Assembly (NCBI GenBank): GCA_036445815.1
Contig: JAZFRU010000270.1
Span: 1 to 40,267, forward strand
DNA length: 40,267 nucleotides
Source: Acidobacteriota bacterium
Lineage (GTDB): Bacteria; Acidobacteriota; UBA6911; RPQK01; JADFOI01
Direction: 5' to 3'
Shown here: in pieces, positions 1 to 38,373 of the stretch
Layout of the letters: every line of letters starts with the position of its first letter
How positions within the stretch are numbered: the first letter of the stretch is position 1
The notes under the pieces: generated by a model
Told to the model about the DNA's origin: nothing
Databases searched by the model: none
The model's input: only the letters and a program-made list of their open reading frames with translations
Position numbers and translations under genes: made by a program

Positions 1-1
1 C

Positions 2-15713: not shown

Positions 15714-15873
15714 ATCTCCACTGTCCTCCCTGTCGATTTTGATTGTGAGTGAAAGTTATGGATGGGTGGCGCAATGAGCATCCTAATAGGAGCAAATTTA
15801 GCACATTCAACAGCCCCGATCAAGGTCACTTTTTTACCCCTTTTTACCCATTTCTGTTGCCGGAAGGCAGGGA

Positions 15874-16263
15874 GCGACCTCGCTCCGCTCGGTCGCGTTC
15901 CAGGTTCCACGTTCCACGTTCTACGGAAGAAGAGAAGAGCCGCTCAAGCCTGTCTTTCTCTCACCAGGTCGTCGCGAAGCGGTGCCGCCTTCATCTGAGC
16001 GAAGCGAAGAAAGGACCGGCCTGACAAGGCGCATGAGAGGAGGCCCCCGGAAGCGTACTGTACGGTACGCTGAGGAGGCGAACGAATGCAACACAGTCAG
16101 GCCGAATCATGGCGCCGATGCAGTAGAGCGGGTGTGAGATAGGCAGGCTAAAGAGCGGCTTTCTGAACTCGCGTACTGACGCCCTTCCGCAGTCCTGACC
16201 CACGTGAAACGTTAAACGTGAAACTTGAAACGCGCTGGTCGAAGACCAGCGCCCGGTCAGGGG
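15874..16263. repeat. Composite heptamer-array element, copy A (with a nested 207-nt module)
   Basis: The parts, in order: hairpin GCGACC-N11-GGTCGC (15874-15896); heptamers GTTCCAG GTTCCAC GTTCCAC GTTCTAC (15897-15924); split hairpin arms AGCCGCTC (15938-15945) and GAGCGGCT (16153-16160) separated by 207 nt; inverted heptamers GTGAAAC GTTAAAC GTGAAAC TTGAAAC (16204-16231); palindrome GCGCTGGTC-GAA-GACCAGCGC (16232-16252); and CCGGTCAGGGG (16253-16263), ending 3 nt before the ddl stop. Confidence 0.85.
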
Positions 16264-17343: not shown

Positions 17344-18272
17344 AATATCTCCTTTCCCAGAGCGGAACAGATGAGTTCTACCGCCAGTGAACCGGTGGCA
17401 TTCTCGGTATCCAGGACAGGATTGACTTCTACGCAGTCCAGGGCCAGCAGTTTGCCGCTGTCGGCCAAGATCTCCATGGCCAGATGACTTTCCCGATAAG
17501 TGATGCCGCCGCGCACAGGAGTGCCCACTCCGGGTGCCACCTGAGGATCCACGACATCCAGATCAAGGCTGCAGTGAAAGCCTTCGGTCCCATCACAGGC
17601 TCGTTCCAATGCTTCCTCCATGACGGATGTCATCCCTCTCATGTCCACTTCCTTCATGGTGATCACTCTCAACCCGGCCTTTTCGATATTGATCTTTTCT
17701 CGAAGGTCAATGCTGCGAGCCCCAATGACCACGGTGTTTTCAGAATTCACTTTGGGAGAAAAATCGGCGATGTCACGCAGTTCCCTGGGGCCCAGGCCCA
17801 TCAAAGCGGCCAGCGGCATGCCATGAACATTCCCCGACGGACTGGTTTCCGGAACGTTCATATCTGCATGGGCATCGACCCAGATCAGGCCGATTTTCTT
17901 GTTTTGATTTCTGAAATAAGCAGAAGTTCCTGCAATACTTCCAGCCGCCAGAGAATGGTCTCCCCCCAGGGTTAGTGGAAACTTTTCCTGCTCCAACGTC
18001 TCCGCCACGAGATTCGATAAAGTCCTGCAGATACGGGCGATCTCATTCAGGAAGACTTGTTTTTGTTCTCCCCGGTCGGCGGCTTCCGGGATCATGACCT
18101 CGACGTTGCCCCCATCCTCCACCCCGGCGTTCATTCTCACCAATGCGCCGTGGATTCCACCGATCCGTATGGCGGAAGGCCCCATGTCCACACCCCGGCG
18201 GCCGGCTCCCAAATCCATGGGTACACCGATAATCCGAACGGCTTTTCCAGTACCGCGGTTAGGCGCCCGCAT
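17340..18272 (-). CDS. rocF: Arginase (ureohydrolase family)
   Basis: 310 aa. IIGVPMDLGAGRRGVDMGPSAIR, GGDHS, DAHADMN and SLDLDVVDP are the Mn-binding ureohydrolase motifs. The N-terminal motif resembles arginase more than agmatinase. Confidence 0.8.
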   Translation of the reverse strand: MRAPNRGTGKAVRIIGVPMDLGAGRRGVDMGPSAIRIGGIHGALVRMNAGVEDGGNVEVMIPEAADRGEQKQVFLNEIARICRTLSNLVAETLEQEKFPLTLGGDHSLAAGSIAGTSAYFRNQNKKIGLIWVDAHADMNVPETSPSGNVHGMPLAALMGLGPRELRDIADFSPKVNSENTVVIGARSIDLREKINIEKAGLRVITMKEVDMRGMTSVMEEALERACDGTEGFHCSLDLDVVDPQVAPGVGTPVRGGITYRESHLAMEILADSGKLLALDCVEVNPVLDTENATGSLAVELICSALGKEIL

Positions 18273-18464
18273 TTCTCACATCTTCTCGTCACGAAGCGGC
18301 GCCGCTTTCATCTGAGCGAAGCGAAGAAAGGGCCGGCCTGACATGGCGCGTAACCCACAAGCGGGTCGCGCAACACAGTCGGGACGGATCATGGCGCCGA
18401 TGCGGTAGAAGGGGTTTGGGACATGCGGGCCAGGCATTGGGCTCTTTTCAACGGGGTTTCAGGG
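18273..18464. repeat. Stand-alone copy (B) of the module that is nested in copy A; it fills the whole rpsT-arginase spacer
   Basis: By hand alignment, two blocks are near-identical to copy A. The first is TCGTCRCGAAGCGGYGCCGCYTTCATCTGAGCGAAGCGAAGAAAGGRCCGGCCTGACA. The second is CAACACAGTCRGGMCGRATCATGGCGCCGATGCRGTAGA. A variable hairpin of different length separates them. Confidence 0.8.
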
Positions 18465-19638: not shown

Positions 19639-19715
19639 ATAGTCCTGGTCTGTGATCAGCAGATAGGCAGGTTCAGGGGATTGGATTGTCTTTTGAAACT
19701 CTGAGAATTCGATGA

Positions 19716-20237
19716 TCAGAATCCTTCCAAAACCGTGGTCACCACACTGGATCCGAAGTCATCGGCAATACGTCTCAAAGCGGGGTTCATTTCAGAAAAG
19801 AAGTTTTTCACATCGATGTTGATGACGTACTGCTCCCGAAAAATGTATTCGTCATTCTTGAATAATATTTCCCCGGTTTGCCGATCCCGCAATTCGACAC
19901 GTGCATTGAGTGTTACCAGAAAGGTAGTCGCAAAGGTTTCTTCGCCAAAAAGGACTGGATTGGCGATCACCTGCGAGATCACCCCCTGAAGAATACTGTC
20001 GGCTTCAGCAGGTTTTCTCGAAACCCGAAAATTCGTTTTTTGAACCAGGGCCCGAATGACAGACTGGGTCAGCAGTTGCTCTACCTTGAAAGTGGTGGTC
20101 TCGTTTTCAAATGGAAGGACTGCAATGGCCGTGATTCCCGTCGGCAGTCGATTCCGAGAGGCCACCCGATAACCGCAGCCCAACTGGCCCGATACTACCA
20201 ACATCACTCCCGCTATAATCCAAGCTGCTAGCCTCAT
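19716..20237 (-). CDS. lptE: LPS-assembly lipoprotein LptE
   Basis: The start is set at the ATG giving MRLAAWIIAGVMLVVSGQLGC-GY, a clean lipoprotein signal with lipobox. The position between leuS and holA is the classical leuS-lptE-holA arrangement. The longest ORF would start at 20297. Confidence 0.7.
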   Translation of the reverse strand: MRLAAWIIAGVMLVVSGQLGCGYRVASRNRLPTGITAIAVLPFENETTTFKVEQLLTQSVIRALVQKTNFRVSRKPAEADSILQGVISQVIANPVLFGEETFATTFLVTLNARVELRDRQTGEILFKNDEYIFREQYVINIDVKNFFSEMNPALRRIADDFGSSVVTTVLEGF

Positions 20238-20325
20238 GCTTTCGTTTGGCGGACCTGTCGTGCTTTCGTGCCTTCGTTTGTTGGTGTCTCTATACATCGT
20301 TCATTTTGCTAGCCCAGTCAGCTGG

Positions 20326-22794
20326 TCAGCTTCCCACCACGATATTCACCAGCTTGTCGGGTACGACGATGACCTTCCGGATCGTTTTACCTTCGATGAG
20401 GGACTTCGTTTTCTCATCCTCCAATGCCAGCGTCTGCATGTCGTCCCTGGAGATCCCCGGCGAAGCGGAGAACCTGGAACGCACCTTTCCATTGACCTGG
20501 ATCACGATAAGCACCCCTTCTTCGCGGGCTAATTCCAGGTCAGCGGTAGGCCAGGGAGTGAAGGTGATCGAGTCAGAATGACCCAGGATCTCCCACATTT
20601 CTTCACAGAAATGGGGCGCGAAAGGAGACAGCAGCAGAGCGATTCCTTCCAGAACCTCCCGGAGAAGCCCCGCTTTCCCTTGATCCTCGCCATCCAGGTA
20701 CTCATAGACGGAATTCAGTAATTCCATGATCGCCGCGATCGCGGTATTCTGATGCATCCGCTCCAAATCGTGCGTCACTTTGCGGACGGTCTGGTGAAAC
20801 TTCCGGAGCAGTGCCCTGTCCTGCTCACTCAGTTCCCGTCCCTCGGCAGCAGTACTGGCCTTGGCATCTTTGACTTTCTCGAGCATTCTCCAGAGCCGGT
20901 TCAAGAAACGAAAGCAGCCTTCCAGTCCTCGATCGCTCCAATCCAGATCACGCTCGGGTGGAGCAGCAAATAAAACAAACAGACGCAGGGCATCGGCTCC
21001 ATACTCCTGCACCACCTCGTCGGGCGAGACCACGTTCCCCCGAGACTTGCTCATGGCTGATCCATCCTTGAGGACCATACCCTGGGTAAACAAGCGACCT
21101 ACCGGCTCATCGAACTGAACCAGACCCAGGTCCCGCATCACCTTGGTGAAAAAACGCATGTAGATGAGGTGTAAGATGGCATGCTCCACCCCCCCGATAT
21201 AGAGGTCTACCGGGAACCAGCAACGGACTGCCTCCTTCTGGATCGGGGCAGAATCGAATTGTGCACTCGTATAGCGGTAGAAATACCAGGAACTGTCCAC
21301 AAAGGTATCCATGGTATCCGTCTCACGACGAGCCTCACCTTGACACTCCGGGCAAGGCACGTTCACGAAGTCAGGTAGATTGGCCAGAGGACTCCCTCCC
21401 AGTTCGGTGCTCTCTATCCTGGGCAAGACGACCGGCAGGTCCTGCTCCGGAACAGGGACAGTCCCACATTTCGGGCAGTGAATCATGGGAATAGGGGTCC
21501 CCCAGTAACGCTGGCGGCTCACACTCCAGTCGCGTAGACGAAAAGTGACTCGCTTCTCGCCAAACCCCTGAGACTGTGCGAATTCCACCATCTTTTCCTG
21601 AGCCGTTCGAGAGGAAAGTCCAGAGAAGTCATCGCTGTCGGCAAGGACTCCATATTCAGTAAAAGCCTGCTCCGGCTCCGGTGGCAACGAACCCTCCTCC
21701 GGTTGAATGACGACCTGTATCGGAAGATGGTACTTCCTGGCGAATTCGAAGTCGCGCTGGTCGTGAGCTGGAACGGCCATGATGGCTCCTGTCCCGTATT
21801 CCATGAGGACAAAGTTGGCAGTCCAGATGGGGATTTTCCTTCCGTTGAAGGGATTTGTGGCATAGCGTCCCGTGAAGATTCCCTTCTTTTCGGTGTCCTC
21901 GGCGGTACGTGAATCCTTTCCCTGACGCCGGATCTCGTCGACGAATTCAGACATCCGGCGGCCAACGGCTGAATCATCCAGACCAGCGATGACCAGGGGA
22001 TGCTCTGGAGCCAGAACCAGGAAGGTCGCGCCAAAAATGGTATCCACACGGGTGGTAAAGATATCGATAGCCGTTTCACCATCCTCCAGCGGGAAACTCA
22101 CTGCACATCCATCCGACCTGCCGATCCAGTTTTTCTGCATGCGCCGAACCTTGTCCGGCCAGTCGCCCAGTTGGTCCATATCTTCCAACAGCTGGTCGGC
22201 ATATTCGGTAATACGGAAGTGCCACTGCTCGAGTTCCCTTTCCGACACCTCGCTCCCGTCACGCCAACAGCAGCCATTGATGACCTGTTCATTGGCCAGA
22301 ACGGTCTGGCATTGGTCACACCAATTCACGGCTCCCTTCCGGAGATAAGCCAGACCTTTTTTGTACATCTGCACAAAAAACCACTGCGTCCACCGATAGT
22401 ATTCCGGAGAACAGGTCGCGGTCTCGCGGGTCCAATCGTAGCTCCAGCCCATTCGCTGGCACTGCTTCTTCATGGTCGCGATATTGTCCAGTGTCCACCG
22501 TTCAGGAGGTATCCCTCTCTGGATGGCTGCATTCTCAGCAGGCAGTCCGAAGGCATCCCATCCAATCGGGTGCAAGACATTCATACCCTGCATTCGCTTG
22601 AACCGGGCAATCGAATCTCCCAGGGAATAATTGCGGACATGGCCGATGTGCAGTGCCCCGGAAGGATAGGGCAGCATCTCCAGGACATAGTAGTGGGCAC
22701 GGGACGAGTCCTCATGGACGACAAATTCTTCGGCTTCAGCCCAGCGCTGCTGCCATTTCTCCTCGGTTGCTATGAAATCGTAACGATCGTTCAT
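20326..22794 (-). CDS. leuS: Leucine--tRNA ligase
   Basis: 822 aa. The class I motifs HIGH (PYPSGALHIGHVRNY) and KMSKS (SAMSKSRGN) are present. Confidence 0.95.
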   Translation of the reverse strand: MNDRYDFIATEEKWQQRWAEAEEFVVHEDSSRAHYYVLEMLPYPSGALHIGHVRNYSLGDSIARFKRMQGMNVLHPIGWDAFGLPAENAAIQRGIPPERWTLDNIATMKKQCQRMGWSYDWTRETATCSPEYYRWTQWFFVQMYKKGLAYLRKGAVNWCDQCQTVLANEQVINGCCWRDGSEVSERELEQWHFRITEYADQLLEDMDQLGDWPDKVRRMQKNWIGRSDGCAVSFPLEDGETAIDIFTTRVDTIFGATFLVLAPEHPLVIAGLDDSAVGRRMSEFVDEIRRQGKDSRTAEDTEKKGIFTGRYATNPFNGRKIPIWTANFVLMEYGTGAIMAVPAHDQRDFEFARKYHLPIQVVIQPEEGSLPPEPEQAFTEYGVLADSDDFSGLSSRTAQEKMVEFAQSQGFGEKRVTFRLRDWSVSRQRYWGTPIPMIHCPKCGTVPVPEQDLPVVLPRIESTELGGSPLANLPDFVNVPCPECQGEARRETDTMDTFVDSSWYFYRYTSAQFDSAPIQKEAVRCWFPVDLYIGGVEHAILHLIYMRFFTKVMRDLGLVQFDEPVGRLFTQGMVLKDGSAMSKSRGNVVSPDEVVQEYGADALRLFVLFAAPPERDLDWSDRGLEGCFRFLNRLWRMLEKVKDAKASTAAEGRELSEQDRALLRKFHQTVRKVTHDLERMHQNTAIAAIMELLNSVYEYLDGEDQGKAGLLREVLEGIALLLSPFAPHFCEEMWEILGHSDSITFTPWPTADLELAREEGVLIVIQVNGKVRSRFSASPGISRDDMQTLALEDEKTKSLIEGKTIRKVIVVPDKLVNIVVGS

Positions 22795-22805
22795 GGTTTG
22801 ATGAG

Positions 22806-22873
22806 CGGTCAGTTCGGAACCTGCCCGCGTTCCAGGTTCCAGGTTCCAAGTTCCACGTTTCCTTCGGTCAGTT
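22806..22873. repeat. Minimal heptamer-array element, copy F, flanked by a 9-bp direct repeat
   Basis: CGGTCAGTT (22806-22814) is followed by CGGAAC, an 8-nt loop, the heptamers GTTCCAG GTTCCAG GTTCCAA GTTCCAC GTTTCCT (22829-22863), one T, and CGGTCAGTT again (22865-22873). The dcd stop codon lies inside the right repeat. Confidence 0.8.
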
Positions 22874-23437
22874 GCCGGCCCCCTCTACTTTCGACAAGAC
22901 AATCCCCTTCTGTGCCTGATACTTCCCTTTTCTATCTCCATAGGATGTACGGCATTCCTCACTGGCTTCGAGAAAAATGAGTTGAGCGATTCCCTCGTTG
23001 GAATACACCTTGACCGGCGACAAACCAGTATTGGAAATCGATACGGTGGCATGCCCTTCCCATTCCGGCTCAAACGGGGTCACGTTCACCAGGATCCCAC
23101 ATCTGGCATAACTGGATTTTCCTGTACAGATGGTCAGAATATTTCTGGGAATTCTAAAGTACTCAACGGACTGGGCCAGCACAAACGATCCACCGGGAAT
23201 CACGCAGTGATCACCTTCAAAATCCTCAAACGACTCTGGGCGAACATCTTTGGGATCCAAGACCAGAGAGTCCCTCTGGCGATAGATCTTGTATTGTCGA
23301 TCCACTCGAAAGTCGTAACCGTAAGAGGAAACCCCGGAAGATATCTCACCCTTTCGGACCTGGGATTCCTGGAAAGGAACAATCATCTGTTGCTCCCTGG
23401 CCATACGAGTAATCCAGTGATCCGGTTTCACACCCAT
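22868..23437 (-). CDS. dcd: dCTP deaminase
   Basis: 189 aa. The N-terminal region ...IVPF....V......S.G.SSYGYD.RV and the overall length are typical of Dcd. Confidence 0.88.
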   Translation of the reverse strand: MGVKPDHWITRMAREQQMIVPFQESQVRKGEISSGVSSYGYDFRVDRQYKIYRQRDSLVLDPKDVRPESFEDFEGDHCVIPGGSFVLAQSVEYFRIPRNILTICTGKSSYARCGILVNVTPFEPEWEGHATVSISNTGLSPVKVYSNEGIAQLIFLEASEECRTSYGDRKGKYQAQKGIVLSKVEGAGN

Positions 23438-23505
23438 ACTACTTTTCTCCTAGTCAACCAAAGAGTCGAAAGTTTATCCGAGTCCAATTATAAAGTCCAA
23501 AATAG

Positions 23506-23534
23506 TTGACAGACCTAATAAAGCCAAGTAAAGT
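23506..23534 (+). promoter_or_regulatory. Sigma-70-type promoter candidate for the HU/IHF gene
   Basis: TTGACA (23506-23511), a 17-nt spacer, then TAAAGT (23529-23534), in the AT-rich divergent spacer. GGAGG at 23551-23555 precedes the GTG start at 23568. Confidence 0.45.
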
Positions 23535-23567
23535 CGAATTAACGGTTTATGGAGGAAATACCAAGCA

Positions 23568-23837
23568 GTGATTAAACAGGATATCGTCAGTTGCGTGGCC
23601 ACCAAGATGGGCATTACCAAGGTGAAAGCGGAGGTTGCTGTTGACTCGGTTTTCGGTGCACTCAAGCAAGCCATGAAGAAGGGCGAGCGCATCGAACTTC
23701 GGGGATTTGGTGTCTTTGTGGTCAAACCCCGCAAGAGTGGTATTGGAAGAAATCCAAGGACAGGCGACGAGGTCCCCATTCCTCCCGGTAAAACCGTTCG
23801 GTTCAAACCGGGCAAAGAAATAAGATTCACACAATAG
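23568..23837 (+). CDS. HU/IHF family DNA-binding protein
   Basis: 89 aa. RGFGVF.V..R..R.GRNPRTGDEV.IP....V.FKPGKE is the HU/IHF arm signature. The start is GTG. Confidence 0.88.
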   Translation: MIKQDIVSCVATKMGITKVKAEVAVDSVFGALKQAMKKGERIELRGFGVFVVKPRKSGIGRNPRTGDEVPIPPGKTVRFKPGKEIRFTQ

Positions 23838-23842
23838 CCGGT

Positions 23843-24831
23843 TTGAATTGGGATCACCCACTTCCTGCTGATCAGTCTTCCGAACTCCCTTACCCGACCA
23901 TCCCCACCCCTCCTGCACCGGAAAAAACCAAGGTAGTCCTCCCGGCCGTGTTGCTTTTGTGCACATTTATCACCAGCTTGACGGCCGGATTTATGTGGCA
24001 TGTCAGGTTTGTCAGCCAAAGTTCCAGTGAACTGGCAGGGCGAATCACCGGGGTCCTGACCAACCCCATGGATCTGTTGAACGGTCTTCCATTCGCTTTC
24101 ACGATCCTGATCATCCTGCTGGCACACGAGATGGGCCACTATCTGGCCTGCCGTTACTACGGGATCAATGCCACTCTTCCCTATGTCATACCAGGACCAC
24201 CGCCGTTCAATCCCTTCGGGACCTTCGGTGCGGTGATCAAGATCAAGTCCCTTTTTGCGGATCGCCGTCAGCTTTTTGATGTTGGAATTGCCGGCCCCCT
24301 GGGGGGGTCATTTTCATCATCCCCGCCTTGATCATCGGAATTCAACAATCCACGGAGATGGTTTTTCAGGAATCGACCCAGCAAACCATGGAGTTCGGTG
24401 AGCCTTTGCTATTCCAACTGGCGACGTCCCTTTTCTTTTCAGGCGGTCCCGATGCGGCGATCCGACTCCATCCCATCGGATGGGCGGCATGGTTCGGCAT
24501 GCTGGCCACCAGTATTAATCTACTGCCCATTGGTCAGCTCGATGGTGGCCACATAATCTATGCACTCTTCGGAACACGCAGCCATCGATTCATTTCCTAC
24601 ACCAGCTTCGGGGCCCTGGTTGGTATCAGCCTTTATTCGTGGCCCATGATGGGATATCTACTGTTCGCCTTCATCCTTCTTTTCCTCGGATTTCGTCATC
24701 CCAGGCCCCGCACCGAGTTCCCCTCGTTGGGACTGAAACGAAAGATCATTGCTTTGATCGGATTCATCATCTTCGTCCTGACGTTCATTCCAGTTCCGGT
24801 CCGAATCATCCAGCACGTGGGCCGCCTGTGA
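23843..24831 (+). pseudogene. Site-2 protease family (M50) metalloprotease, interrupted by a -1 frameshift in a G7 run
   Basis: ORF 23843-24331 carries HEMGHYLACRY (HExxH) and ends ...GIAGPLGG then SFSSSPP-stop. ORF 24328-24831 carries NLLPIGQLDGGH. The second frame is open back to the G run (GGVIFIIPALIIG...). The two halves together make one ordinary M50 protein. Confidence 0.8.
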
Positions 24832-25259
24832 AGTTATCTCCACCCCTTAGGGTCCGGTACTCCCAGGTAGAACAGTCGGACATCGTTCGAGACTACTTCG
24901 GCCCCCTGGGAGCTGAAGAAACTCCTCGTTGTCCTCACTGTGGAGAACTTCTTCACTTTGACACCCGCCAGGTTGCCGGCAGTCAGTTCCAGATGAAGGT
25001 GCAATGTTCAGAGTGCCCCGCGGTTTTTCGCTGGGAGCAGACCGAACCGGAACAGCCCTGGAAACCCCTCTACCTCAAATACTTCGTTGAGGGTTATCAG
25101 GGGAACGATAGAATTCGCTGTCCCCTTGATGACTGCTACATCAGCTACACGGAATTCAATGATGGCGTGGTTGAGTTTCGCTGTCCCTTTTGCAACCGAC
25201 GAGGCAGGGCAACCGTATCGTGTAGTCGTCCGGGCCTCGCTCCGCTCGGCCGCGTTTAA
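24828..25259 (+). CDS. Cys-rich hypothetical protein with several zinc-ribbon knuckles
   Basis: The start is set at GTG 24828, which overlaps the M50 stop (GTGA). The protein is 143 aa. The Cys pairs are CPHCG, CSECP, CPLDDC and CPFC. Its last about 8 codons and its stop codon lie inside repeat copy C. Confidence 0.5.
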   Translation: MKLSPPLRVRYSQVEQSDIVRDYFGPLGAEETPRCPHCGELLHFDTRQVAGSQFQMKVQCSECPAVFRWEQTEPEQPWKPLYLKYFVEGYQGNDRIRCPLDDCYISYTEFNDGVVEFRCPFCNRRGRATVSCSRPGLAPLGRV

Positions 25260-25487
25260 CGTTTCAGGTTTAACGTTTCACGAAACTAGAGAAGAGCCGC
25301 TCTATGAGCGGCTTTCCAGATTCGGCGCCCTGAGGCGCCTCCCACACTCAGGACACTTCTCGACCAAACCATCCGGGTGATTTGGGTTTTGGGACACTCT
25401 GGCCCGTGCGCCCCCACCCTTTTTTTCGTGGAACGTGGAACCTGGAACGTGGAACGCGCGGGTCGCAGACCAGCGCTCGGTCAGGGG
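25231..25487. repeat. Composite heptamer-array element, copy C (archetype)
   Basis: The parts, in order: GGCC-N11-GGCC (25233-25251); GTTTAAC GTTTCAG GTTTAAC GTTTCAC (25254-25281); hairpin AGCCGCTC-TAT-GAGCGGCT (25295-25313); a core with stem CCTGAG/CTCAGG, GGGTTTTGGGACA (25384-25396) and a T7 run (25420-25426); GTGGAAC GTGGAAC CTGGAAC GTGGAAC (25428-25455); palindrome GCGCGGGTC-GCA-GACCAGCGC (25456-25476); and TCGGTCAGGGG (25477-25487). Confidence 0.9.
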
Positions 25488-26479
25488 ACCCGCACTCTGC
25501 CCACGGTATTCTCGTTGGTTCCAAACCAAATCTCTCGGGAAGGCTGATGAAACACCATGTGGCGAACCGTTCCACCACCGCTTCCGATCTCGGTGATGCT
25601 GAAGAACTTCTCGGTTTTGGGATCGAACCCGACAAAGCGGTTGGGTTGAGGAAGGGTCTCAACAAACCAGAGACGATCCTTGTCATCCACGGTCATGGCA
25701 TAAGGTCGCGACTGCCCCTTGGCCGGATTCTCCCACTCGGTGACCTGGCCCGTGGCCGCATCTAAACGCCCCAGATAACCTCGAGCGTAATCGACGTACC
25801 AGATCATGCCATCGGAAGTGAGTGCTAACCGTCGAGGCCGGGCCTCCTGGTTGGGAAGCGGGTACTCGGTCAACTCCATGGTGTTCGGATCAACCGTGGC
25901 GATTTTGTTGGTTCCAAACAGGCAAATCCAGGGCCGGTTGTCCGAATCGACTACAATGCCGTACGGCCTGGCCCTGGGCGTGGGCACGCTGACCAGTCGA
26001 ATATCGCCTGTGTCGATATCGAAATGACCGACGAAATTACCGCGTTGAACGGTGAACCAGATGTCTCCATCGTGGTCAAACGTCAGAGTGTGAGGGTCTC
26101 CGGCATCCGGATTCGGCATCATGAACTTGGTGATCTCACCCGTGCCGGCATCCAGTCTTCCGATGTGAGATGCCCGGTTGCCTGCATACCAAATGGACCC
26201 GTCTTCTCCGACAATCACGTTGTGAGGTCCGGTTCCGGGATCCAGATCATAGCGCTTGAACTCCCGAACCTTGGGGTCAAAGTAACCCACATAGTGACCA
26301 GCCTGCCCCACAAACCAGATCTGATCCTGAATTCTCAGATAGGGATCGCGCGGCCGGGTCTTGCCCCAGGGAACTTCCCACTCGTTAATCTGTACCTCGA
26401 CATTCTGGGCCACGAGTTGGACAGGCCATACCCAGAGCATCAACACGAGAAGAGCTGATTTTTTCCAGTCAATCATCAT
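25481..26479 (-). CDS. Secreted beta-propeller protein, virginiamycin B (streptogramin) lyase-like
   Basis: Repeats of the form G.GP.....DG.IW(F/Y) recur about 7 times, as in COG4257/Vgb-like propellers. An N-terminal signal peptide is present. The start is set at the first ATG (MMIDWKK...). A TTG at 26494 is the longest option. Confidence 0.6.
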   Translation of the reverse strand: MMIDWKKSALLVLMLWVWPVQLVAQNVEVQINEWEVPWGKTRPRDPYLRIQDQIWFVGQAGHYVGYFDPKVREFKRYDLDPGTGPHNVIVGEDGSIWYAGNRASHIGRLDAGTGEITKFMMPNPDAGDPHTLTFDHDGDIWFTVQRGNFVGHFDIDTGDIRLVSVPTPRARPYGIVVDSDNRPWICLFGTNKIATVDPNTMELTEYPLPNQEARPRRLALTSDGMIWYVDYARGYLGRLDAATGQVTEWENPAKGQSRPYAMTVDDKDRLWFVETLPQPNRFVGFDPKTEKFFSITEIGSGGGTVRHMVFHQPSREIWFGTNENTVGRVRVP

Positions 26480-26539
26480 CAGAATACACCCCAATAAGTG
26501 GCTAGTACGGACCTCAAGTTTACCTCAAGAGGGATTGCA

Positions 26540-26989
26540 TCACCAATCGGTTCCGAGACCCACCAGCAAAAGAAAAAACACGATGATCGCCGCCAGCAGA
26601 TAGACCAGCTGTCGAAATCGGTAACGCTCCTGAAATGCTTCGTATTTTTCCTCCCACTTGTGGTCTGCCAGTTCCAACGGCTCAGTATTCATGGGGCCTT
26701 CGGGAACCCGCAGATCAGAGATGTGTTGCAAATCGATAAATCGAGGGAGGAACCAGAAAAAGACAGCCGTCCCAATGAGAAAAACCAGCATCCACAGGCT
26801 GCGTTCAGAGAAAGAAGAAATGACAAGAACCGCCAGCGTAACCACCACCAGCAGAAGGATCCGAAAGTAGGCCCAGGGGACGGTTGGTCGGAACTCAGCT
26901 CCGCATCTTGGACAGCTTAGCCGACCCGGTGTCAGCAAGGCATCAGTCCACAAACGAGCTTTACAGACAGGGCAACGCTGAGACATCAA
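26540..26989 (-). CDS. Hypothetical membrane protein with an N-terminal zinc ribbon
   Basis: 149 aa. CPVC...CPRC is followed by about 3 predicted TM helices. Its ATG overlaps the stop of the upstream serine hydrolase gene (ATGA), which suggests translational coupling. Confidence 0.55.
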   Translation of the reverse strand: MMSQRCPVCKARLWTDALLTPGRLSCPRCGAEFRPTVPWAYFRILLLVVVTLAVLVISSFSERSLWMLVFLIGTAVFFWFLPRFIDLQHISDLRVPEGPMNTEPLELADHKWEEKYEAFQERYRFRQLVYLLAAIIVFFLLLVGLGTDW

Positions 26990-28173
26990 TCACGATGAAA
27001 ATAATGTTCCGGCACAATGGAACCGTCCATTATGGAACCGGCTACCACGGAAGCGACTTTTTTTCGCAACGAAGTGACACTTCCCCCACCCTCGGGATGA
27101 ACGCGGTTGGTGAACAGGATGACAAAAGCCTGACTGAAAGGATCAATCCATAACGAGGTGCCCGTGAAGCCCGTGTGCCCGAACGAGCCGATCGGAAAAA
27201 GATCGCCACGCGGGCCACTATAGGGTGAACGGATGTCAAACCCGATACCACGCCAGGGTTCTGTGCCTTCCGGGGACTGGGATGTCGTCATTTTGAGAAC
27301 AGCCAGAGGGGACAGAATCCGAACGCCTTTGAACTCTCCTAAATTGAGTATCATCTGGGCGTAGATGGCGGTATCTTCGACGGTCGAAAAGAGCCCTGCA
27401 TGCCCTGCATACCCCCCCATCCTGAACGTGGTGGGGTCGTGTACGGCCCCCTGAAGCATGGTCCCATTCCTGAATTCGGTCGGAGCGATACGACTTTGAA
27501 GCTCCTCAGGGGGGAAAAAGTAGGTGTGCTCCATCCCCAACGGCTCAAAGATCCGTTCGGCCGAAAATTCGTGTAAAGGTTGGCCGCCTACCTTGCGGAT
27601 TAACTCGGCAAGAACCAGGTAATTGATATCGCTGTAGATGAAGGTCTCCCCCGGAGAGGCCACCAGTTGCTCATTCAGAGCTCTCTCGATACCGTCGTCA
27701 TAGCCCTCCCACAGGTCATCCAGATCCAGGTCGGGACGCAGCCCCGAGTAGTGGGTCAACAGCTGGAGAACCGTAACCGATCCCTTGCCGTTCCGGGCAA
27801 AGTCGGGAAGATGCACGGACACCCGATCGGTCAGGGATAGCCTCCCCTCCTCCACCAGGAGCATGACGGAAGTGGCCGTCGCCAAGACCTTGGTCAAGGA
27901 AGCCACATCGAAGATCGTGTCCACGGATACCGGTTCCTTGCGAGGCACCAGACTCTTGTACCCAAAAGCCTTGCGGTACACCACCTTTCCCTTGCGGGCC
28001 ACCAGAGCAACGGCACCGGGAGTTTCCTCTTCCTCGATTGCCCGTTGGATCACCTGATCCAGGCGGGCCAGTCGCAGGCTTGACATACCGACCTCTTCAG
28101 GACTTGCCAGGGATAGGATCTGTGCCTGAAGCCCGCCGATCGCCACCCACCAGACCAGCAATCTCAACAGCAT
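26986..28173 (-). CDS. Beta-lactamase-related serine hydrolase (class C / PBP4*-like family)
   Basis: 395 aa with a signal peptide. The SxxK motif sits in FDVASLTKVLAT, and HTG is present near the C-terminus (FGHTGFTG). Confidence 0.8.
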   Translation of the reverse strand: MLLRLLVWWVAIGGLQAQILSLASPEEVGMSSLRLARLDQVIQRAIEEEETPGAVALVARKGKVVYRKAFGYKSLVPRKEPVSVDTIFDVASLTKVLATATSVMLLVEEGRLSLTDRVSVHLPDFARNGKGSVTVLQLLTHYSGLRPDLDLDDLWEGYDDGIERALNEQLVASPGETFIYSDINYLVLAELIRKVGGQPLHEFSAERIFEPLGMEHTYFFPPEELQSRIAPTEFRNGTMLQGAVHDPTTFRMGGYAGHAGLFSTVEDTAIYAQMILNLGEFKGVRILSPLAVLKMTTSQSPEGTEPWRGIGFDIRSPYSGPRGDLFPIGSFGHTGFTGTSLWIDPFSQAFVILFTNRVHPEGGGSVTSLRKKVASVVAGSIMDGSIVPEHYFHRD

Positions 28174-28285
28174 TCTTCCCCTCCAGCCAGGAGTGCTCGC
28201 CCTACTTTGTACGTCAAAGAGAGTTCTTCCCAGGCACTAATCACCCTGCAATGGCATACTATCACCGTGCCCCGACCGGAATATT

Positions 28286-29806
28286 ATGATGACAATTAAC
28301 TCGAAAACGTCACACCTCAGCCAGTTCGAAGAGTACACCGAGGAACTCATGCTGCTCCGGAGCGTCCTCTCCACCTTGTCCTGGGATCAGGAAACCATGA
28401 TGCCAGTAAAGGGGGGAAACTTTCGGGCAAAACAGATTGCTTCCCTCTCAGCACTCTTCCACCAGAAACTTACCTCACCCTCCCTGGGGGACCTCCTCAA
28501 ACATCTGCAGGATGCAGATCTGGAATTGTGGGCCCAGGCTGCGGTTCGCGAAATCAACCGAGAAAGAGACAAGGCCCTGCGGCTTCCCGAGCGACTGGTC
28601 CGGGATTTGGCTGAAACCACTTCCCTGGCCTATGAGATCTGGGTTCAGGCCCGTGGCCAGTCTGACTGGTCGCTGTTTTCACCCTGGCTGGAAAAGATTC
28701 TTCGACTCAAACGAGAGGAGGCGCGTTGCCTGCAAGAGTCTGATTCACTGTACGACGCCCTGCTGGATCACTACGAACCCGGCATGACGGTTCAGATGCT
28801 GGACCCGCTCTTTGCGGTCGTGAGACCGCGACTAACCCAACTACTCTCCCAGATCCAGTCCTCAGGCAAGCAGGTCAGTGAGGACGTATTCAAGGGTCAT
28901 TTCCCCGCTGCCCAGCAGAAGAATCTCGGGCGTCAGGTACTTTCCGCCATGGGTTTCCAATGGGAAGCAGGCCGGTTGGATCGCTCCCCTCATCCTTTCT
29001 GTACGGGCCTCTCCCCCCTGGATGTTCGCATCACGACTCGCTACTCGGAAGACGACTTCGCGTCCTCACTGTTTGGAATCATTCACGAAGGAGGGCATGC
29101 CCTTTACGAGCAGGGACTGGGCTCCCAACACTACGGATCTGCTGCTTGCGATGCTATTTCACTGGGAATACACGAATCCCAGTCACGCCTTTGGGAGAAC
29201 CAGGTGGGTCGCAGCCGAGCCTTCTGGGAATACTGGTTTCCCCACCTGAAAGAAAGTTTTCCTGGACAGCTGGATCACATTCCGCTGGATACCCTGGTCC
29301 AGGGCATCAATCGAGTTGAGGCTTCTTTGATCCGCGTGGAGGCCGACGAGGTCTCTTACGGCCTTCACATCATCCTGCGTTATGAGCTGGAAAAACTCAT
29401 GATTGAAGGAGAACTGGAGGTCTCGGACCTGGAGGCAGCCTGGAATGCAACCATGGAGGAATACCTGGGTGTGGTTCCCTCCAATGCTGCAGAAGGAGTT
29501 CTTCAAGACATCCACTGGTCCCACGGCAGTCTGGGGTACTTCCCCACTTATTTACTGGGGAATCTTTACGCTGGACAAATCTTCCATCAGGCCAATCAGG
29601 CCATGCCTGGACTGGAAGATGACATCCGCCAGGGCAATTTTCTCGCCCTGCGTGAATGGTTGCGCCAGGAAATCCACCAGCGCGCCAAAACCGTCACGGC
29701 GGAGACACTCATTCACGACATCAGCCATGAGCCCCTGAGTCCCCATTACTTCCTCGATTATCTGGAAGACAAATTCAACCACCTGTATGAGCTCCATGGG
29801 TCTTGA
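28286..29806 (+). CDS. Carboxypeptidase M32 (thermostable carboxypeptidase Taq family)
   Basis: 506 aa. [11 protein letters not shown] (HExxH), [10 protein letters not shown] and [12 protein letters not shown] are the hallmark M32 motifs. Confidence 0.88.
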
Positions 29807-31010
29807 GATGCCTGCCTTCAAGATTGCAATGCTGCAGGCTCTGCTGGCGGTTTGTTTCACCACTTCAGGGACTGTGGCCCAGGACCCCGTCCAATCAGGA
29901 GCCGACCGGATCCTCGAGAATCCCTACCTGAGCTGGATCCAGGGAAAGCGAGTCGGGTTGATCACCAATCCTACCGGCGTGACTTCGACACTGAACTCCA
30001 CCTGGGACCTACTCTCCCAACACCCGGACGTTGACTTGAAGGCCCTCTTCGGCCCCGAACATGGAATCTTTGGCCAGGCGCAGGCGGGAGATCACGTCTC
30101 CGACTCCGGGAAAGTCTACAGCCTGTACGGTGAGACTCGAGCTCCGACCGCTGAAATGCTGGAGGGTGTGGAGGTCCTGATCTACGACATCCAGGACGTG
30201 GGTGTGCGTTTTTATACCTACATTTCCACGATGTACCTGAGCATGCAGGCGGCGGCCAAACACGGCATCCCTTTCATTGTTCTGGATCGACCGAACCCGA
30301 TTGATGGTTCACGAGTCGAAGGCCCCATTTTGCAAACCGAAAAGAAGTCCTTTTTAGGACTTGTGGGACTCCCCATTCGTTATGGAATGACTCCGGGCGA
30401 ACTGGCTCGGATGCTCAATGGGGAAACCAACCTGGGATCCGATCTCAAAGTGGTTCCTCTGAGCGGTTGGCACCGGCAGGATTGGTACGACCAGACTGCC
30501 CTGGAGTGGGTCCTACCCTCTCCCAATATGCCCACTCTCACCACTGCCACCCTCTATCCAGGCCTGGGACTGATCGAGGGCACTAACCTGTCGGAGGGTC
30601 GGGGAACCAGTCTTCCTTTTGAGTTGGTGGGAGCCCCATGGCTCAGCGGCCAGGAATTGGCCAAACGATTGAACCGTCTACCACTGGCCGGTGTCCGCTT
30701 TCGTTTCCAGACCTTCACTCCGACCACCTCCAAATACCAGGGAGAGCCGTGTCAGGGAGTTCAGATCCACATTCTGGATCGGACAACCTTTCAACCCCTT
30801 GAGGTTGCACTCCATCTGTTGCAGGAGGTCCAAATGCTTCACCCGGAACAGTTTCAATGGAACACGACCTTCCTGGATCGTCTGGTAGGCAACAGCTGGG
30901 TTCGTGAAGCTTTGTCCGAGGGCAGACCGGTGGATGAGATCGTGAACCGCTGGCAACAGGAACTGAAGGAATTCAAGGAAGTGCGGAAGAGGTATCTGTT
31001 GTACCGCTGA
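29787..31010 (+). CDS. DUF1343 family protein (exo-beta-N-acetylmuramidase NamZ-like)
   Basis: 407 aa. GLITNPTGV, LFGPEHG, YDIQDVGVRFYTY, VLDRPNP, PSPNMP and NLSEGRGT match the DUF1343 pattern. The start could be ATG 29808, just after the M32 stop, instead of 29787. Confidence 0.8.
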   Translation: MSSMGLEMPAFKIAMLQALLAVCFTTSGTVAQDPVQSGADRILENPYLSWIQGKRVGLITNPTGVTSTLNSTWDLLSQHPDVDLKALFGPEHGIFGQAQAGDHVSDSGKVYSLYGETRAPTAEMLEGVEVLIYDIQDVGVRFYTYISTMYLSMQAAAKHGIPFIVLDRPNPIDGSRVEGPILQTEKKSFLGLVGLPIRYGMTPGELARMLNGETNLGSDLKVVPLSGWHRQDWYDQTALEWVLPSPNMPTLTTATLYPGLGLIEGTNLSEGRGTSLPFELVGAPWLSGQELAKRLNRLPLAGVRFRFQTFTPTTSKYQGEPCQGVQIHILDRTTFQPLEVALHLLQEVQMLHPEQFQWNTTFLDRLVGNSWVREALSEGRPVDEIVNRWQQELKEFKEVRKRYLLYR

Positions 31011-31215
31011 GCGGGGGAGCGCTGGTCGCAGACCAGCGCGTTCCACGTTCCAGGTTCCACGTTCCAAGTGGGTCCGGAGTGTTGGAGACGCCTCCCACAA
31101 TCCGGACACGATCACAGCCAACCCATCCAAATTAACTGGGTTTTGAGACAGCCTGGGCCCTGCGCCCCTACCCGTTTTCTCGTGGAACGTGGAACCTGGA
31201 ACGCGGTTGAACGCC
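31011..31215. repeat. Composite heptamer-array element, copy D
   Basis: The parts, in order: palindrome GCGCTGGTC-GCA-GACCAGCGC (31019-31039), 9 nt after the NamZ stop; GTTCCAC GTTCCAG GTTCCAC GTTCCAA (31040-31067); a core with stem GTCCGGA/TCCGGAC (31072-78/31101-07), GGGTTTTGAGACA and GCGCCCCTACCCGTTTTCT; then GTGGAAC GTGGAAC CTGGAAC (31182-31202). Confidence 0.88.
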
Positions 31216-31226
31216 AGTGAGGCCGC

Positions 31227-38161: not shown

Positions 38162-38373
38162 CCGGATTGTGGGAGAGGAAGTCAGCTGGTCAGCGCTTCG
38201 ACCCTTCGGGCCTCGCGCGTTTCGCGTTTCAGGTTTAACGTTTCACGAAAAGCAAGAAAAGCCACTCACACAACGGCTCTCCGGAATCGGCAAGGGACTT
38301 CATTCTTCCGTTCGTGAAACCTGAAACATTAAACGTTAAACGCACTGGTCGAAGGCCAGCGCTCGGTCAGGGG
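38162..38373. repeat. Composite heptamer-array element, copy E (short form) plus an inverted core fragment
   Basis: CCGGATTGTGGGAG (38162-38175) is the exact reverse complement of 31092-31105 in copy D. The remaining parts are: GTTTCGC GTTTCAG GTTTAAC GTTTCAC (38219-38246); a 67-nt spacer; GTGAAAC CTGAAAC ATTAAAC GTTAAAC (38314-38341); near-palindrome GCACTGGTC-GAA-GGCCAGCGC (38342-38362); and TCGGTCAGGGG (38363-38373), directly abutting the DegT stop. Confidence 0.85.

What the first reader, a model, noticed from the sequence alone, without database searches (positions are those of the whole stretch)
25231..25487. Modular intergenic element built from inverted tandem-heptamer arrays: archetype of a six-copy family in 40 kb
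The whole spacer between two convergent stop codons (25259 and 25481) is one ordered structure. In order it contains:
- a small GGCC-N11-GGCC hairpin
- 4 tandem heptamers GTTTAAC GTTTCAG GTTTAAC GTTTCAC
- a perfect hairpin AGCCGCTC-TAT-GAGCGGCT
- a roughly 110-nt core with its own stem (CCTGAG/CTCAGG), a GGGTTTTGGGACA box, and a GC-rich run followed by T7
- 4 heptamers in inverted orientation, GTGGAAC GTGGAAC CTGGAAC GTGGAAC
- a 21-nt palindrome GCGCGGGTC-GCA-GACCAGCGC
- TCGGTCAGGGG

Related copies with the same parts in different combinations lie at 15874-16263, 18273-18464, 22806-22873, 31011-31215 and 38162-38373. All are intergenic, and all touch or contain a stop codon.

Six copies in 40 kb of otherwise core genes is a very high density. 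The architecture resembles REP/BIME/REPIN elements or MITEs in logic, being hairpin-forming, located at 3' ends, and modular. However, the 7-nt periodic arms are not a feature of any such family I know. Cyanobacterial STRR heptamer repeats are the closest analogy, but those are simple direct arrays. No transposase is in the window.
Basis: partly seen in the sequence, partly recalled or inferred. Interest (0 to 1): 0.8.

Follow-up and report, generated by a model that had tools for sequence, protein, structure and literature searches.

The report
Intergenic hairpin repeats with seven-base arms
The spacers between ordinary housekeeping genes of this soil-type bacterium (Acidobacteriota) hold a real family of non-coding mosaic repeats, whose two arms are each four tandem seven-base units facing each other; such paired seven-base arrays turn out to be common in many bacteria but remain unexplained.

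Summary
Every part listed for 25231-25487 is present. The window has 9 heptamer arrays (17 matches to GTTYMAS x3, none in 100 shuffles).

- **Copies:** four are full elements (15876-16263, 25233-25487, 31019-31215, 38200-38373). 22805-22856 is a lone array. 18262-18440 has no heptamers and is only a nested rod-like hairpin ("core B").
- **Architecture:** GC-rich cap hairpin, four heptamers pointing inward, a loop holding nested MITE-like hairpins, four inverted heptamers, cap.
- **Databases:** no Rfam, plasmid or phage match, and no transposase in the window.
- **Relatives:** a 78%-identical Acidobacteriota MAG has elements at the same three spacers, with swapped or inverted interiors and 3 rather than 4 units. 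Another relative has none.
- **Controls:** GTTCCAS is no commoner than a control heptamer. However, in 1.5 Mb of unselected loci, 42% of period-7 arrays have an inverted partner (period 6: 1/45; period 9: 0/23), and their length peaks at about 31 nt.

Verdict: a REP/BIME/MITE-like mosaic family and a new variant of a known but poorly understood kind. Paired tandem 7-8-nt arrays were noted in Geobacter and Xanthomonas. How it spreads and what it does remain inferred.

The parts
25233..25251 (.). Archetype: outer cap hairpin GGCC-TCGCTCCGCTC-GGCC. It encodes the last codons of the Zn-ribbon ORF.
   Evidence: homologous copy at 15876-15894
25254..25281 (+). Archetype: left arm, 4 heptamers GTTTAAC GTTTCAG GTTTAAC GTTTCAC. 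TAA at 25257-59 is the stop of ORF 24639-25259.
25295..25313 (.). Archetype: inner perfect hairpin AGCCGCTC-TAT-GAGCGGCT. This is the site that is split by core B in element 15876-16263.
25316..25426 (+). Archetype: nested 'core A' with the GGCGCC-CTGA-GGCGCC hairpin, the GGGTTTTGGGACA box, and a hairpin followed by T7 (25420-26). It is 82% identical to 31118-31206.
   Evidence: (D4)
25428..25455 (-). Archetype: right arm, 4 inverted heptamers (reverse complement GTTCCAC GTTCCAG GTTCCAC GTTCCAC).
25456..25476 (.). Archetype: 21-nt cap palindrome GCGCGGGTC-GCA-GACCAGCGC.
   Evidence: (D6)
25477..25487 (+). Archetype: tail TCGGTCAGGGG. TCA at 25481-83 is the stop of the minus-strand lyase-like gene.
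15876..15924 (+). Element 1: cap hairpin (15876-94) plus left arm GTTCCAG GTTCCAC GTTCCAC GTTCTAC (15897-15924).
15938..16160 (+). Element 1: inner hairpin halves AGCCGCTC (15938-45) and GAGCGGCT (16153-60), split by the nested core B (15946-16152).
   Evidence: (D5, D7)
16204..16263 (-). Element 1: right arm GTGAAAC GTTAAAC GTGAAAC TTGAAAC (16204-31), cap palindrome (16232-52) and tail CCGGTCAGGGG (16253-63). The ddl stop codon is at 16267-69.
   Evidence: (D3)
18262..18440 (+). Core B alone, with no heptamers. It is a rod-like hairpin lying between the rpsT stop (18465) and the start of the arginase-family gene (18272).
22805..22856 (+). Lone arm: cap hairpin GCGGTCAG-TTCGGAAC-CTGCCCGC (22805-28) plus GTTCCAG GTTCCAG GTTCCAA GTTCCAC (22829-56). 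It lies between the dcd stop (22868) and the leuS start (22794).
   Evidence: orthologue has 3 units
31019..31067 (+). Element 5: cap palindrome (31019-39) plus left arm GTTCCAC GTTCCAG GTTCCAC GTTCCAA (31040-67). The namZ stop codon is at 31008-10.
31069..31215 (+). Element 5: core A copy (31069-31180), right arm GTGGAAC GTGGAAC CTGGAAC (31182-31202) and a degenerate end. The TPR gene stop codon is at 31227-29.
   Evidence: (D4)
38200..38246 (+). Element 6: cap with TTCG loop (38200-18) plus left arm GTTTCGC GTTTCAG GTTTAAC GTTTCAC (38219-46).
38260..38291 (+). Element 6: degenerate inner hairpin region. It is 79% identical to the archetype over 76 nt.
   Evidence: D1
38314..38373 (-). Element 6: right arm GTGAAAC CTGAAAC ATTAAAC GTTAAAC (38314-41), cap palindrome (38342-62) and tail (38363-73). 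The degT stop codon is at 38374-76.
   Evidence: (D3)

Best explanation
This is an old, lineage-specific family of non-coding, non-autonomous mosaic repeats in an Acidobacteriota chromosome. It works like REP/BIME/REPIN-type elements.

**Basic unit.** A long hairpin-forming inverted repeat. Each end is a short GC-rich cap palindrome followed by four tandem heptamers (GTTCCAS, or its variant GTTTMAS) that point inward. The loop tolerates, and has collected, further small hairpin elements (core A, core B).

**Shown.**
- Copies at unlinked spacers are homologous.
- Arms of one element match each other.
- The whole element folds as a hairpin on either strand.
- Elements fill whole spacers next to stop codons.
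- Relatives show gain or loss of whole heptamers, inversion of the interior between the arms, and exchange of the interior.

**Inferred.**
- Copies spread by a trans-acting function that is not in the window. The lack of target duplications fits a single-strand, hairpin-recognising enzyme or ectopic recombination better than a DDE transposase.
- The seven-base period is kept by slipped-strand changes plus concerted evolution of the two arms.
- Once transcribed from either side, the element gives a 5'-(GUUYMAS)4...(SUKRAAC)4-3' hairpin that marks or protects transcript ends between genes.
For: - **Family is real and beyond chance:**
- **Hairpin on both strands:**
- **Housekeeping flanks, no transposase:**
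- **Closest relative:** the XB_MAG1217 contig (L112) is about 78% identical over window 18974-32498. It has elements at the same three spacers, with core B where the window has core A, an inverted interior at the archetype site, and 3 rather than 4 heptamers upstream of leuS.
- **Whole-unit changes:** L374 and L379 differ by exactly two heptamers.
- **Same family elsewhere:** it occurs in a third Acidobacteriota MAG, with the cap palindrome and inner hairpin (L389, L404).
- **Empty sites:** a relative with a 78%-identical lyase-like protein has none at the three syntenic spacers (L450).
- **Arms co-vary:** arms match their own partner better than arms of other elements (0.72 against 0.63; 0 of 2000 permutations).
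- **Position and orientation in other genomes:** GTTCCAS arrays start 0-12 nt after long-ORF stops in sense orientation (72 against 23). Pairs are convergent 24 to 1.
- **Terminator context in some lineages:** some Syntrophorhabdus copies sit between an A-tract and CGTCTTTT, the layout of a two-way terminator.
- **Loops take insertions:** an IS lies inside a loop in L063, and core B splits the inner hairpin.
Against: - No mobilising gene was found in the window or in 309 heptamer-bearing loci.
- No recent copies exist. Copies are 79-92% alike, about as diverged as the orthologous genes, so activity is not shown.
- The outer hairpins in the window lack a U-tract, and a simple terminator scan finds nothing at the elements.
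- Across 74 pairs, G.U-type mismatches are not enriched over A.C-type on the transcribed strand, so selection at RNA level is not shown.
- Nothing in this model predicts the period of seven or the preferred length of about 31 nt.
Confidence: 0.5

Rival explanations
1. True MITEs. The cap plus four heptamers is a terminal inverted repeat made of tandem transposase-binding heptads. Copies are cut or copied by a transposase encoded elsewhere in the genome.
For: - Array orientation is fixed and inward, 4 of 4 in the window and 24 to 1 elsewhere.
- End modules of about 30-50 nt are typical of IS ends.
- Elements carry nested insertions and swapped cargo.
- Solo ends exist.
- A related core in L451 is bounded by clear 19-nt terminal inverted repeats.
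Against: - No target-site duplications were seen at 32 pairs.
- No recurrent transposase lies next to arrays in 309 loci.
- Dozens of different heptamer units, several per genome and even nested, would need many specificities.
- Orthologous sites are occupied in both close relatives, so no fresh insertion was seen.
Confidence: 0.2
2. Arrays of binding sites on double-stranded DNA. A protein would step every 7 bp, as ribbon-helix-helix repressors such as omega do, or a ParB-like or nucleoid protein would bind them. Convergent arrays at gene ends would act as regulatory or roadblock sites.
For: - Four units is the preferred number, and array length peaks at 30-33 nt.
- GTTCCAC and GTTTCAC equal the half-site of chromosomal parS (own knowledge).
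- The Geobacter authors read similar paired arrays as global-regulator or IHF/HU sites (PMC2700814).
- The lone array upstream of leuS is kept in the relative.
Against: - A control heptamer is just as frequent, so the cross-phylum spread of GTTCCAS needs no conserved binder.
- The window has no parS-like palindrome.
- GTTCCAG and GTTCCAA units, which break the parS half-site, are commoner than GTTCCAC in many genomes.
- Unit diversity within genomes argues against one protein.
Confidence: 0.13
3. There is no mobility or function. Independent slipped-strand microsatellites arose in situ in spacers and only look like a family.
For: - Heptanucleotide repeats are known to be over-represented in bacteria (cited in PMC4692102).
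- Whole-unit copy-number changes occur between relatives.
- Many different units exist.
Against: - Copies share non-repetitive flanks and interiors: cap hairpins, the 21-nt palindrome plus tail, the inner hairpin and the cores.
- 42% of period-7 arrays have an inverted partner, against 1 of 45 for period 6 and 0 of 23 for period 9.
- There is a length optimum rather than a steady decay.
Confidence: 0.07
4. Genes for structured regulatory RNAs (small RNAs or cis-regulators) whose conserved fold is the function.
For: - Folding z-scores are strong.
- Core B shows compensatory changes in 5 of 50 pairs among 3 copies.
- Some caps have UUCG-type loops.
Against: - No Rfam hit even at E = 5.
- Interiors are interchangeable, invertible and variable in length (67-279 nt).
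- Elements occur in both orientations relative to the transcribed strand.
- There is no wobble bias on the transcribed strand.
Confidence: 0.05

Closest known systems
REP / BIME elements of enterobacteria and pseudomonads, and REPINs (REP doublets mobilised by RAYT transposases; PMC2817692, PMC3116915, PMC3733652)
   Same: Non-coding, extragenic and mostly at 3' ends. They contain short GC-rich imperfect palindromes, are arranged in inverted orientation so that they form larger hairpins, are mosaic and modular, and are present at high local density.
   Different: The cap palindromes carry no GTAG or CGTC tag. The arms are four tandem heptamers rather than a single palindromic unit. Spacing is variable (67-279 nt). 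No RAYT gene has been seen, though only 40 kb was available.
Paired tandem-repeat sites of Geobacter metallireducens (classes 1-3: 4 x GTTGCTYN, 3 x TCTCCGTS[Y], 5 x MTYCTGA; PMC2700814)
   Same: Pairs of 3-5 tandem 7-9-nt units on opposite strands at variable distance. They are intergenic, occur as tens of copies per genome, and sometimes have an IS inserted nearby.
   Different: The unit sequences and the phylum differ. No cap palindromes or nested cores were described. They were interpreted, without any test, as binding sites for a global regulator.
Heptamer microsatellites: cyanobacterial STRR (own knowledge), Xanthomonas/Nostoc GGGAATC / GGGGAYT (PMC4692102), Beggiatoaceae TAACTGA (PMC4679880)
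   Same: Seven-base tandem units in intergenic DNA. In Xanthomonas four units is the commonest number, and a few occur as convergent inverted pairs.
   Different: Those are mostly simple direct arrays. The G-rich ones are discussed as quadruplex formers, and the TAACTGA arrays lie just upstream of start codons. None has caps, a shared interior or a dispersed mosaic structure.
Modular MITE-like repeats such as pneumococcal BOX (boxA-(boxB)n-boxC) and Neisseria Correia elements (own knowledge)
   Same: Small, non-coding, hairpin-forming and modular, with a tandemly repeated inner module whose copy number varies. They are located between genes and affect transcripts.
   Different: The BOX repeat unit is 45 nt, not 7. 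Correia elements have 26-nt terminal inverted repeats and a TA target duplication. No target duplication is seen here.

Membership tests
REP/BIME (RAYT-associated) | Short (20-40 nt) imperfect palindromes, extragenic and repeated | tested here: met
   The 21-nt palindrome GCGCTGGTC-GMA-GACCAGCGC occurs 4 times and the cap hairpin twice. All copies are intergenic.
REP/BIME (RAYT-associated) | Conserved GTAG or CGTC tetranucleotide at the foot of the palindrome (PMC3733652) | tested here: not met
   Flanks of the four palindromes and two cap hairpins were read directly. There is no shared GTAG or CGTC. The single GTAG..CGTC before 25233 lies in coding sequence and is absent from the other copies.
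REP/BIME (RAYT-associated) | A Y1 (IS200-like) RAYT gene in the genome, itself flanked by the repeats | not testable with these tools
   Only 40 kb of the genome is available. No such domain is present in any large ORF of the window. No recurrent gene lies near arrays in 309 loci.
REPIN | Two inverted repeat units at a conserved spacing that form one hairpin | tested here: inconclusive
   Inverted arms and a hairpin fold are present. However, the spacing varies from 67 to 279 nt because of nested inserts.
MITE | Terminal inverted repeats | tested here: met
   Four of four complete elements have convergent cap-plus-array ends.
MITE | Target-site duplication flanking the element | tested here: not met
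   No direct repeats were found just outside the arms in 32 pairs, including the window's four. The boundaries are uncertain because the elements fill the whole spacer.
MITE | A coding parent element with the same ends | tested here: not met
   None was found in the loci held. The one IS lying between arrays (L063) has its own 27-nt terminal inverted repeats and is an insertion into the loop. A genome-wide search was not possible.
Cyanobacterial STRR | Tandem heptamers of the STRR unit sequences in cyanobacteria | tested here: not met
   The units here are GTTCCAS and GTTTMAS, and the host is Acidobacteriota.
Geobacter-type paired tandem-repeat sites | Pairs of 3-5 tandem 7-9-nt units on opposite strands, at variable distance, intergenic | tested here: met
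   compared with the description in PMC2700814. This is an architectural class, not a sequence family.
Intrinsic (Rho-independent) terminator | GC-rich stem-loop followed directly by a U-tract | tested here: inconclusive
   The consensus scan finds none at the elements. Core A ends in a hairpin plus T7 on the + strand. The outer hairpin has no U-tract in the window, but has one in Syntrophorhabdus copies.
Integron attC site | One RYYYAAC and one GTTRRRY core site with L boxes, following cassette ORFs, with an integrase nearby | tested here: not met
   GTTTAAC and GTTAAAC fit the two consensus sequences. However, they are tandem units, GTTCCAS does not fit, the flanking genes are ddl, leuS, namZ and the like, and no integrase is present.
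Chromosomal parS | 16-bp palindrome TGTTNCACGTGAAACA | tested here: not met
   The best matches have 3 mismatches: 4 sites found against 1.1 expected. Only the half-site resemblance remains.
Any Rfam family | Covariance-model match | tested here: not met
   No hit at gathering score over the whole window. No hit in any element at E <= 5.

The most novel reading that the evidence does not exclude
Inverted pairs of tandem-heptamer arrays may be a phylum-spanning class defined by structure, not by sequence. Its rules would be a period of 7 (sometimes 8), about 4.5 units or 31 nt per arm, an inverted partner within 400 nt, arms that co-vary, and a position next to stop codons. For most units the 5' arm also has G > C. 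On this reading the arrays are made or maintained by one conserved machinery that measures seven bases. That would explain the long-noted but unexplained excess of heptanucleotide repeats in bacterial genomes. The window's family would be one elaborate, capped and cargo-bearing member.
Probability: 0.2. Interest if true: 0.85.

Novelty: new variant of a known kind. Interest (0 to 1): 0.55.

Why it matters
Small intergenic repeats shape transcript ends, recombination and genome plasticity. Outside a few model organisms they are barely catalogued.

This window gives a compact, well-delimited example from an uncultured Acidobacteriota lineage: four complete copies, one solo arm and two kinds of nested insert.

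The survey it prompted shows that heptamer arrays are a special case among short tandem repeats. Nearly half come as inverted pairs, and they have a preferred length. This turns the old observation that heptanucleotide repeats are over-represented into something testable. One can ask which gene families co-occur with these hairpins, whether transcripts end or are cut there, and whether any protein binds four heptads.

If it is nothing more than selfish hairpin DNA, it is still a useful marker family and a caution for gene callers. ORFs here run into the element and take their stop codon from it.

Tried and rejected
1. **A universally conserved motif.** GTTCCAS x4 hit more than 111 loci in many phyla, which suggested a conserved binder such as ParB, since GTTCCAC and GTTTCAC are the parS half-site. 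A control heptamer (the reverse string) hit 120 loci in the same scan. In viral contigs the control gave 8 hits and a shuffled heptamer 3, against 7 for GTTCCAS. The window has no parS. The idea was dropped. The control unit is itself quasi-related (GGTCCAA against GGTTCCA).
2. **RNA-level selection.** The archetype pairs GUUUCAC with GUGGAAC through G.U on the + strand, and element 1 does the same on the strand transcribed from ddl. Over 74 pairs there is no excess of G.U over A.C mismatches on the transcribed strand.
3. **Metagenome scan.** The scan with the palindrome-plus-tail pattern returned 40 chance matches in GC-rich coding DNA and no family member. The exact 32-mer has no match in the GTDB representatives. 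The source genome is not in these collections, and look-up of its Ddl protein also failed.
4. **Search for a mobilising gene.** All-against-all clustering of ORFs around arrays found only common families (kinases, ABC ATPases) or orthologous Nitrospira loci.
5. **Target-site duplications.** None were found.
6. **Integron attC, CRISPR and terminator readings.** See the membership tests.
7. **The 22-mer GTTTCASGTTTAACGTTTCACG.** It occurs in at least 78 loci. I first read this as evidence of common descent. It can instead arise by single substitutions in the very numerous GTTTCAC arrays, so it is not decisive.
8. **A general rule that the 5' arm has G > C.** It holds for other units (33 against 4). 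It does not hold for the window's own GTTCCAS and GTTTCAS arms.
9. **Literature.** No held paper contains these tandem sequences.
Full report
**What is there**

- a cap hairpin GGCC-N11-GGCC (25233-51);
- four heptamers GTTTAAC GTTTCAG GTTTAAC GTTTCAC (25254-81);
- a perfect hairpin AGCCGCTC-TAT-GAGCGGCT (25295-313);
- a roughly 110-nt core with GGCGCC-CTGA-GGCGCC, a GGGTTTTGGGACA box and a hairpin followed by T7;
- four inverted heptamers (25428-55);
- a 21-nt palindrome (25456-76);
- the tail TCGGTCAGGGG (25477-87).

The two convergent ORFs end inside the element. TAA lies in the first heptamer, and TCA (TGA on the minus strand) lies in the tail.

Tandem Repeats Finder reports nine period-7 arrays in the window. 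The pattern GTTYMAS x3 with at most one mismatch matches 17 times, against none in 100 dinucleotide-preserving shuffles. The repeat finder shows that copies share unique, non-repetitive sequence. These shared stretches are 76 nt at 79%, 62 nt at 82-85%, 89 nt at 82% and 85 nt at 85% identity, and the palindrome occurs four times. The archetype folds as one long hairpin in which the two arrays pair, on either strand (z = -5.5 and -4.1). Element 38200-38373 does the same.

**Corrected inventory**

- Four elements are complete: 15876-16263, 25233-25487, 31019-31215 and 38200-38373. In each, the left array reads GTTYMAS and the right array is its inverse, so the heptamers point inward.
- Two unit flavours occur, GTTCCAS and GTTTMAS. 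All four left/right combinations are seen.
- Each array is preceded on its outer side by a small GC-rich hairpin ending in CGC. This is the N11 cap, the 21-nt palindrome, or a TTCG-loop hairpin.
- 22805-22856 is a cap plus a single array, lying between the dcd stop and the leuS start.
- 18262-18440 has no heptamers at all. It is a second copy of 'core B', a rod-like hairpin of about 180-230 nt. In element 15876-16263, core B sits exactly in the loop of the inner hairpin AGCCGCTC/GAGCGGCT.
- Three copies of core B (two in the window, one in a relative) keep their terminal stem through changes on both sides, in 5 of 50 predicted pairs.
- 'Core A' of the archetype recurs in 31069-31180.

The thing is therefore a nested mosaic: a heptamer-armed hairpin that carries other small hairpin elements in its loop.

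**Context**

All large ORFs of the window were scanned against Pfam. They are housekeeping genes: glyQS, recO, mgtE, psd, ddl, rpsT, holA, lptE, leuS, dcd, namZ, meaB, degT and others. There is no transposase, integrase or Y1 domain.

Rfam gives nothing at gathering score over the whole window. It gives nothing in any element at E <= 5 over 15000-39000. There is no tRNA. Plasmid and phage collections give no match.

**Source and relatives**

LeuRS places the window in Acidobacteriota. The best relative is a contig of MAG XB_MAG1217, with 83% protein identity. That contig (L112) is collinear with window 18974-32498 at 78-79% nucleotide identity. It has repeats at the same three spacers, but they are remodelled:
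- At namZ/TPR it carries core B and a degenerate right arm plus palindrome, where the window carries core A.
- At the archetype site it has two heptamers, and the inner segment is in the inverted orientation.
- Upstream of leuS it has the cap plus three heptamers, where the window has four.

Other relatives add to the picture:
- Another Acidobacteriota MAG (PW8.concoct.193) has the same family, with the palindrome abutting GTTTCAC GTTTCAG GTTTAAC GTTTCAC and a GGCCGCTC-TGT-GAGCGGCT inner hairpin. Its orthologous copy differs from the XB_MAG1217 copy by exactly two heptamers.
- Contigs encoding the nearest homologues of the lyase-like gene were fetched. The 88% relative has the element.
- The 83% relative has octamer arrays at that site instead.
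- The 75% relative has a MITE with 19-nt terminal inverted repeats and a core-B-like interior.
- The 78% relative (JAYZCG01) has no such repeat at any of the three syntenic spacers.

The family is therefore real and lineage-restricted. It is old: copies are about as diverged as the orthologous genes. It evolves by whole-unit slippage, by inversion between the arms and by exchange of interiors. No fresh insertion was caught.

**Is the heptamer special?**

GTTCCAS x4 occurs in more than 111 loci of the GTDB representatives, from many phyla. These include Acidobacteriota, Planctomycetota, Bacteroidota, Syntrophorhabdaceae, Betaproteobacteria, Chloroflexota and Patescibacteria. It often occurs as convergent pairs 16-300 nt apart.

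Because GTTCCAC and GTTTCAC are the half-site of parS, I considered a conserved binder. The control refutes the premise. Viral contigs gave 7 hits for GTTCCAS, 8 for the control and 3 for a shuffled heptamer. The window holds no parS. No gene recurs next to the arrays, and no target duplications flank them.

Two regularities do hold for GTTCCAS arrays across genomes:
- Pairs are convergent 24 to 1.
- Arrays begin 0-12 nt after the stop of a long ORF in sense orientation, in 72 cases against 23.

In Syntrophorhabdus, the flanks AAAGACG...CGTCTTTT make the whole thing look like a two-way intrinsic terminator.

**A wider class**

The survey used 1.5 Mb of loci fetched for unrelated reasons. There, tandem arrays with at least 3 copies number 45 for period 6, 52 for period 7, 21 for period 8 and 23 for period 9. 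An inverted partner array within 400 nt is present for 1, 22, 4 and 0 of them respectively.

- More than 40 different heptamer units form such pairs, sometimes with two units nested in one hairpin.
- Period-7 arrays have a length optimum at 30-33 nt, whereas other periods decay monotonically.
- Arms match their own partner better than arms of other elements.
- For units that I did not search for, the 5' arm has G > C in 33 of 37 informative pairs. The window's own family does not obey that rule.
- A test for RNA-level selection was negative. It compared G.U with A.C mismatches on the strand transcribed from the adjacent gene.

**Comparison with the known**

The logic is that of REP/BIME/REPIN and of modular MITE-like repeats. 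Membership fails or cannot be tested, however:
- There is no GTAG or CGTC tag.
- No RAYT gene is visible.
- There is no target duplication.
- No parent element was found.

The nearest published descriptions are purely descriptive:
- paired tandem 7-9-nt 'global regulator sites' in Geobacter metallireducens (PMC2700814);
- four-unit GGGAATC arrays, some inverted, in Xanthomonas, with the remark that heptameric repeats are over-represented in bacteria and unstudied (PMC4692102);
- TAACTGA arrays in Beggiatoaceae (PMC4679880).

No held paper contains the tandem sequences found here.

**Verdict**

- The best reading (confidence about 0.5) is an old, non-autonomous, hairpin-forming mosaic repeat family. 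Its arms are heptamer arrays kept complementary by concerted evolution. It sits where insertions are tolerated, directly after stop codons, and probably acts as a transcript-end hairpin from either side.
- Its mode of spread and its function are inferred, not shown. The period of seven remains unexplained.
- It is a new variant of a known but poorly understood kind.
- Interest is moderate. It would rise if the regularities of the wider class prove to have one cause.

Noticed in passing
window 15946-16152 and 18262-18440; L112 1400-1665; L451 about 3790-4010: 'Core B' is a multi-copy rod-like hairpin of about 180-230 nt. Its apex varies in length, and its terminal stem shows compensatory changes (GCCTGTCT/AGGCAGGC, GCCCGCAT/ATGCGGGC, GCCTGACT/AGTCGGGC). 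In one relative, a related interior is bounded by 19-nt terminal inverted repeats TTAACCCGGATTATGCATA, which looks like a MITE. There is no Rfam match.
   Followed up: partly
window 25204-25259 compared with L112 7540-7600: The Zn-ribbon ORF 24639-25259 reads about 11 codons further than its orthologue. It runs through the cap hairpin and stops at the TAA inside the first heptamer. The lyase-like gene likewise takes its stop codon from the element's tail. Elements therefore remodel protein C-termini.
   Followed up: partly
all fetched loci (3.3 Mb), especially L148, L165, L172, L272, L286: Inverted pairs of tandem-heptamer arrays occur with dozens of different units. 42% of period-7 arrays in unselected loci have an inverted partner, array length peaks at 30-33 nt, and the 5' arm has G > C in 33 of 37 informative pairs. 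Two different heptamers can be nested in one hairpin (L148 19595-19731).
   Followed up: partly
L381, L383, L391, L400, L421-L423, L433, L434 (Nitrospira species): The glmU-glmS spacer of nine Nitrospira species carries GTGAAAC GTTAAAC GTGAAAC close to the 3' end of glmU. It is followed by 0-4 copies of a second heptamer, CGCCTSA. All nine were found through the 22-mer, so its conservation is partly ascertainment.
   Followed up: partly
L449 1650-1775: At the spacer orthologous to the archetype, a relative (lyase-like protein 83% identical) has octamer arrays (CACAGAGR)x3 and (NNGCACGA)x4 instead of heptamers.
   Followed up: no
L063 1469-3902: An IS5/IS1182-like insertion sequence (452-aa transposase, own 27-nt terminal inverted repeats at 2242-2268 and 3680-3706) sits inside the loop of a GTTCCAC-array hairpin. 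The Geobacter paper reported IS elements at fixed distances from its paired sites.
   Followed up: partly
window 38365-38378: GGTCAGG is duplicated in tandem at the right edge of element 6, and the second copy contains the degT stop codon. In relatives, the GGTCAGGG motif also occurs as half of a cap hairpin CCCTGACC-TTCG-GGTCAGGG (L404).
   Followed up: no
window 22805-22856 and L112 9938-9990: The lone array lies about 34 nt upstream of the leuS start codon, and the relative keeps it with 3 units rather than 4. The adjacent cap contains GGAACCTG, which could pair with the array, so alternative pairings in the leuS leader are possible.
   Followed up: no
window 37247-37339 (-): A sub-threshold Rfam match to the actinobacterial sRNA Ms_AS-8 (31.9 bits against a gathering score of 48; E = 0.005) lies inside the acyl-CoA dehydrogenase gene. 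It is probably chance.
   Followed up: no
window 1-15800: The first 15.8 kb of the window has no element although it has several spacers. All nine arrays lie between 15.9 and 38.4 kb.
   Followed up: no
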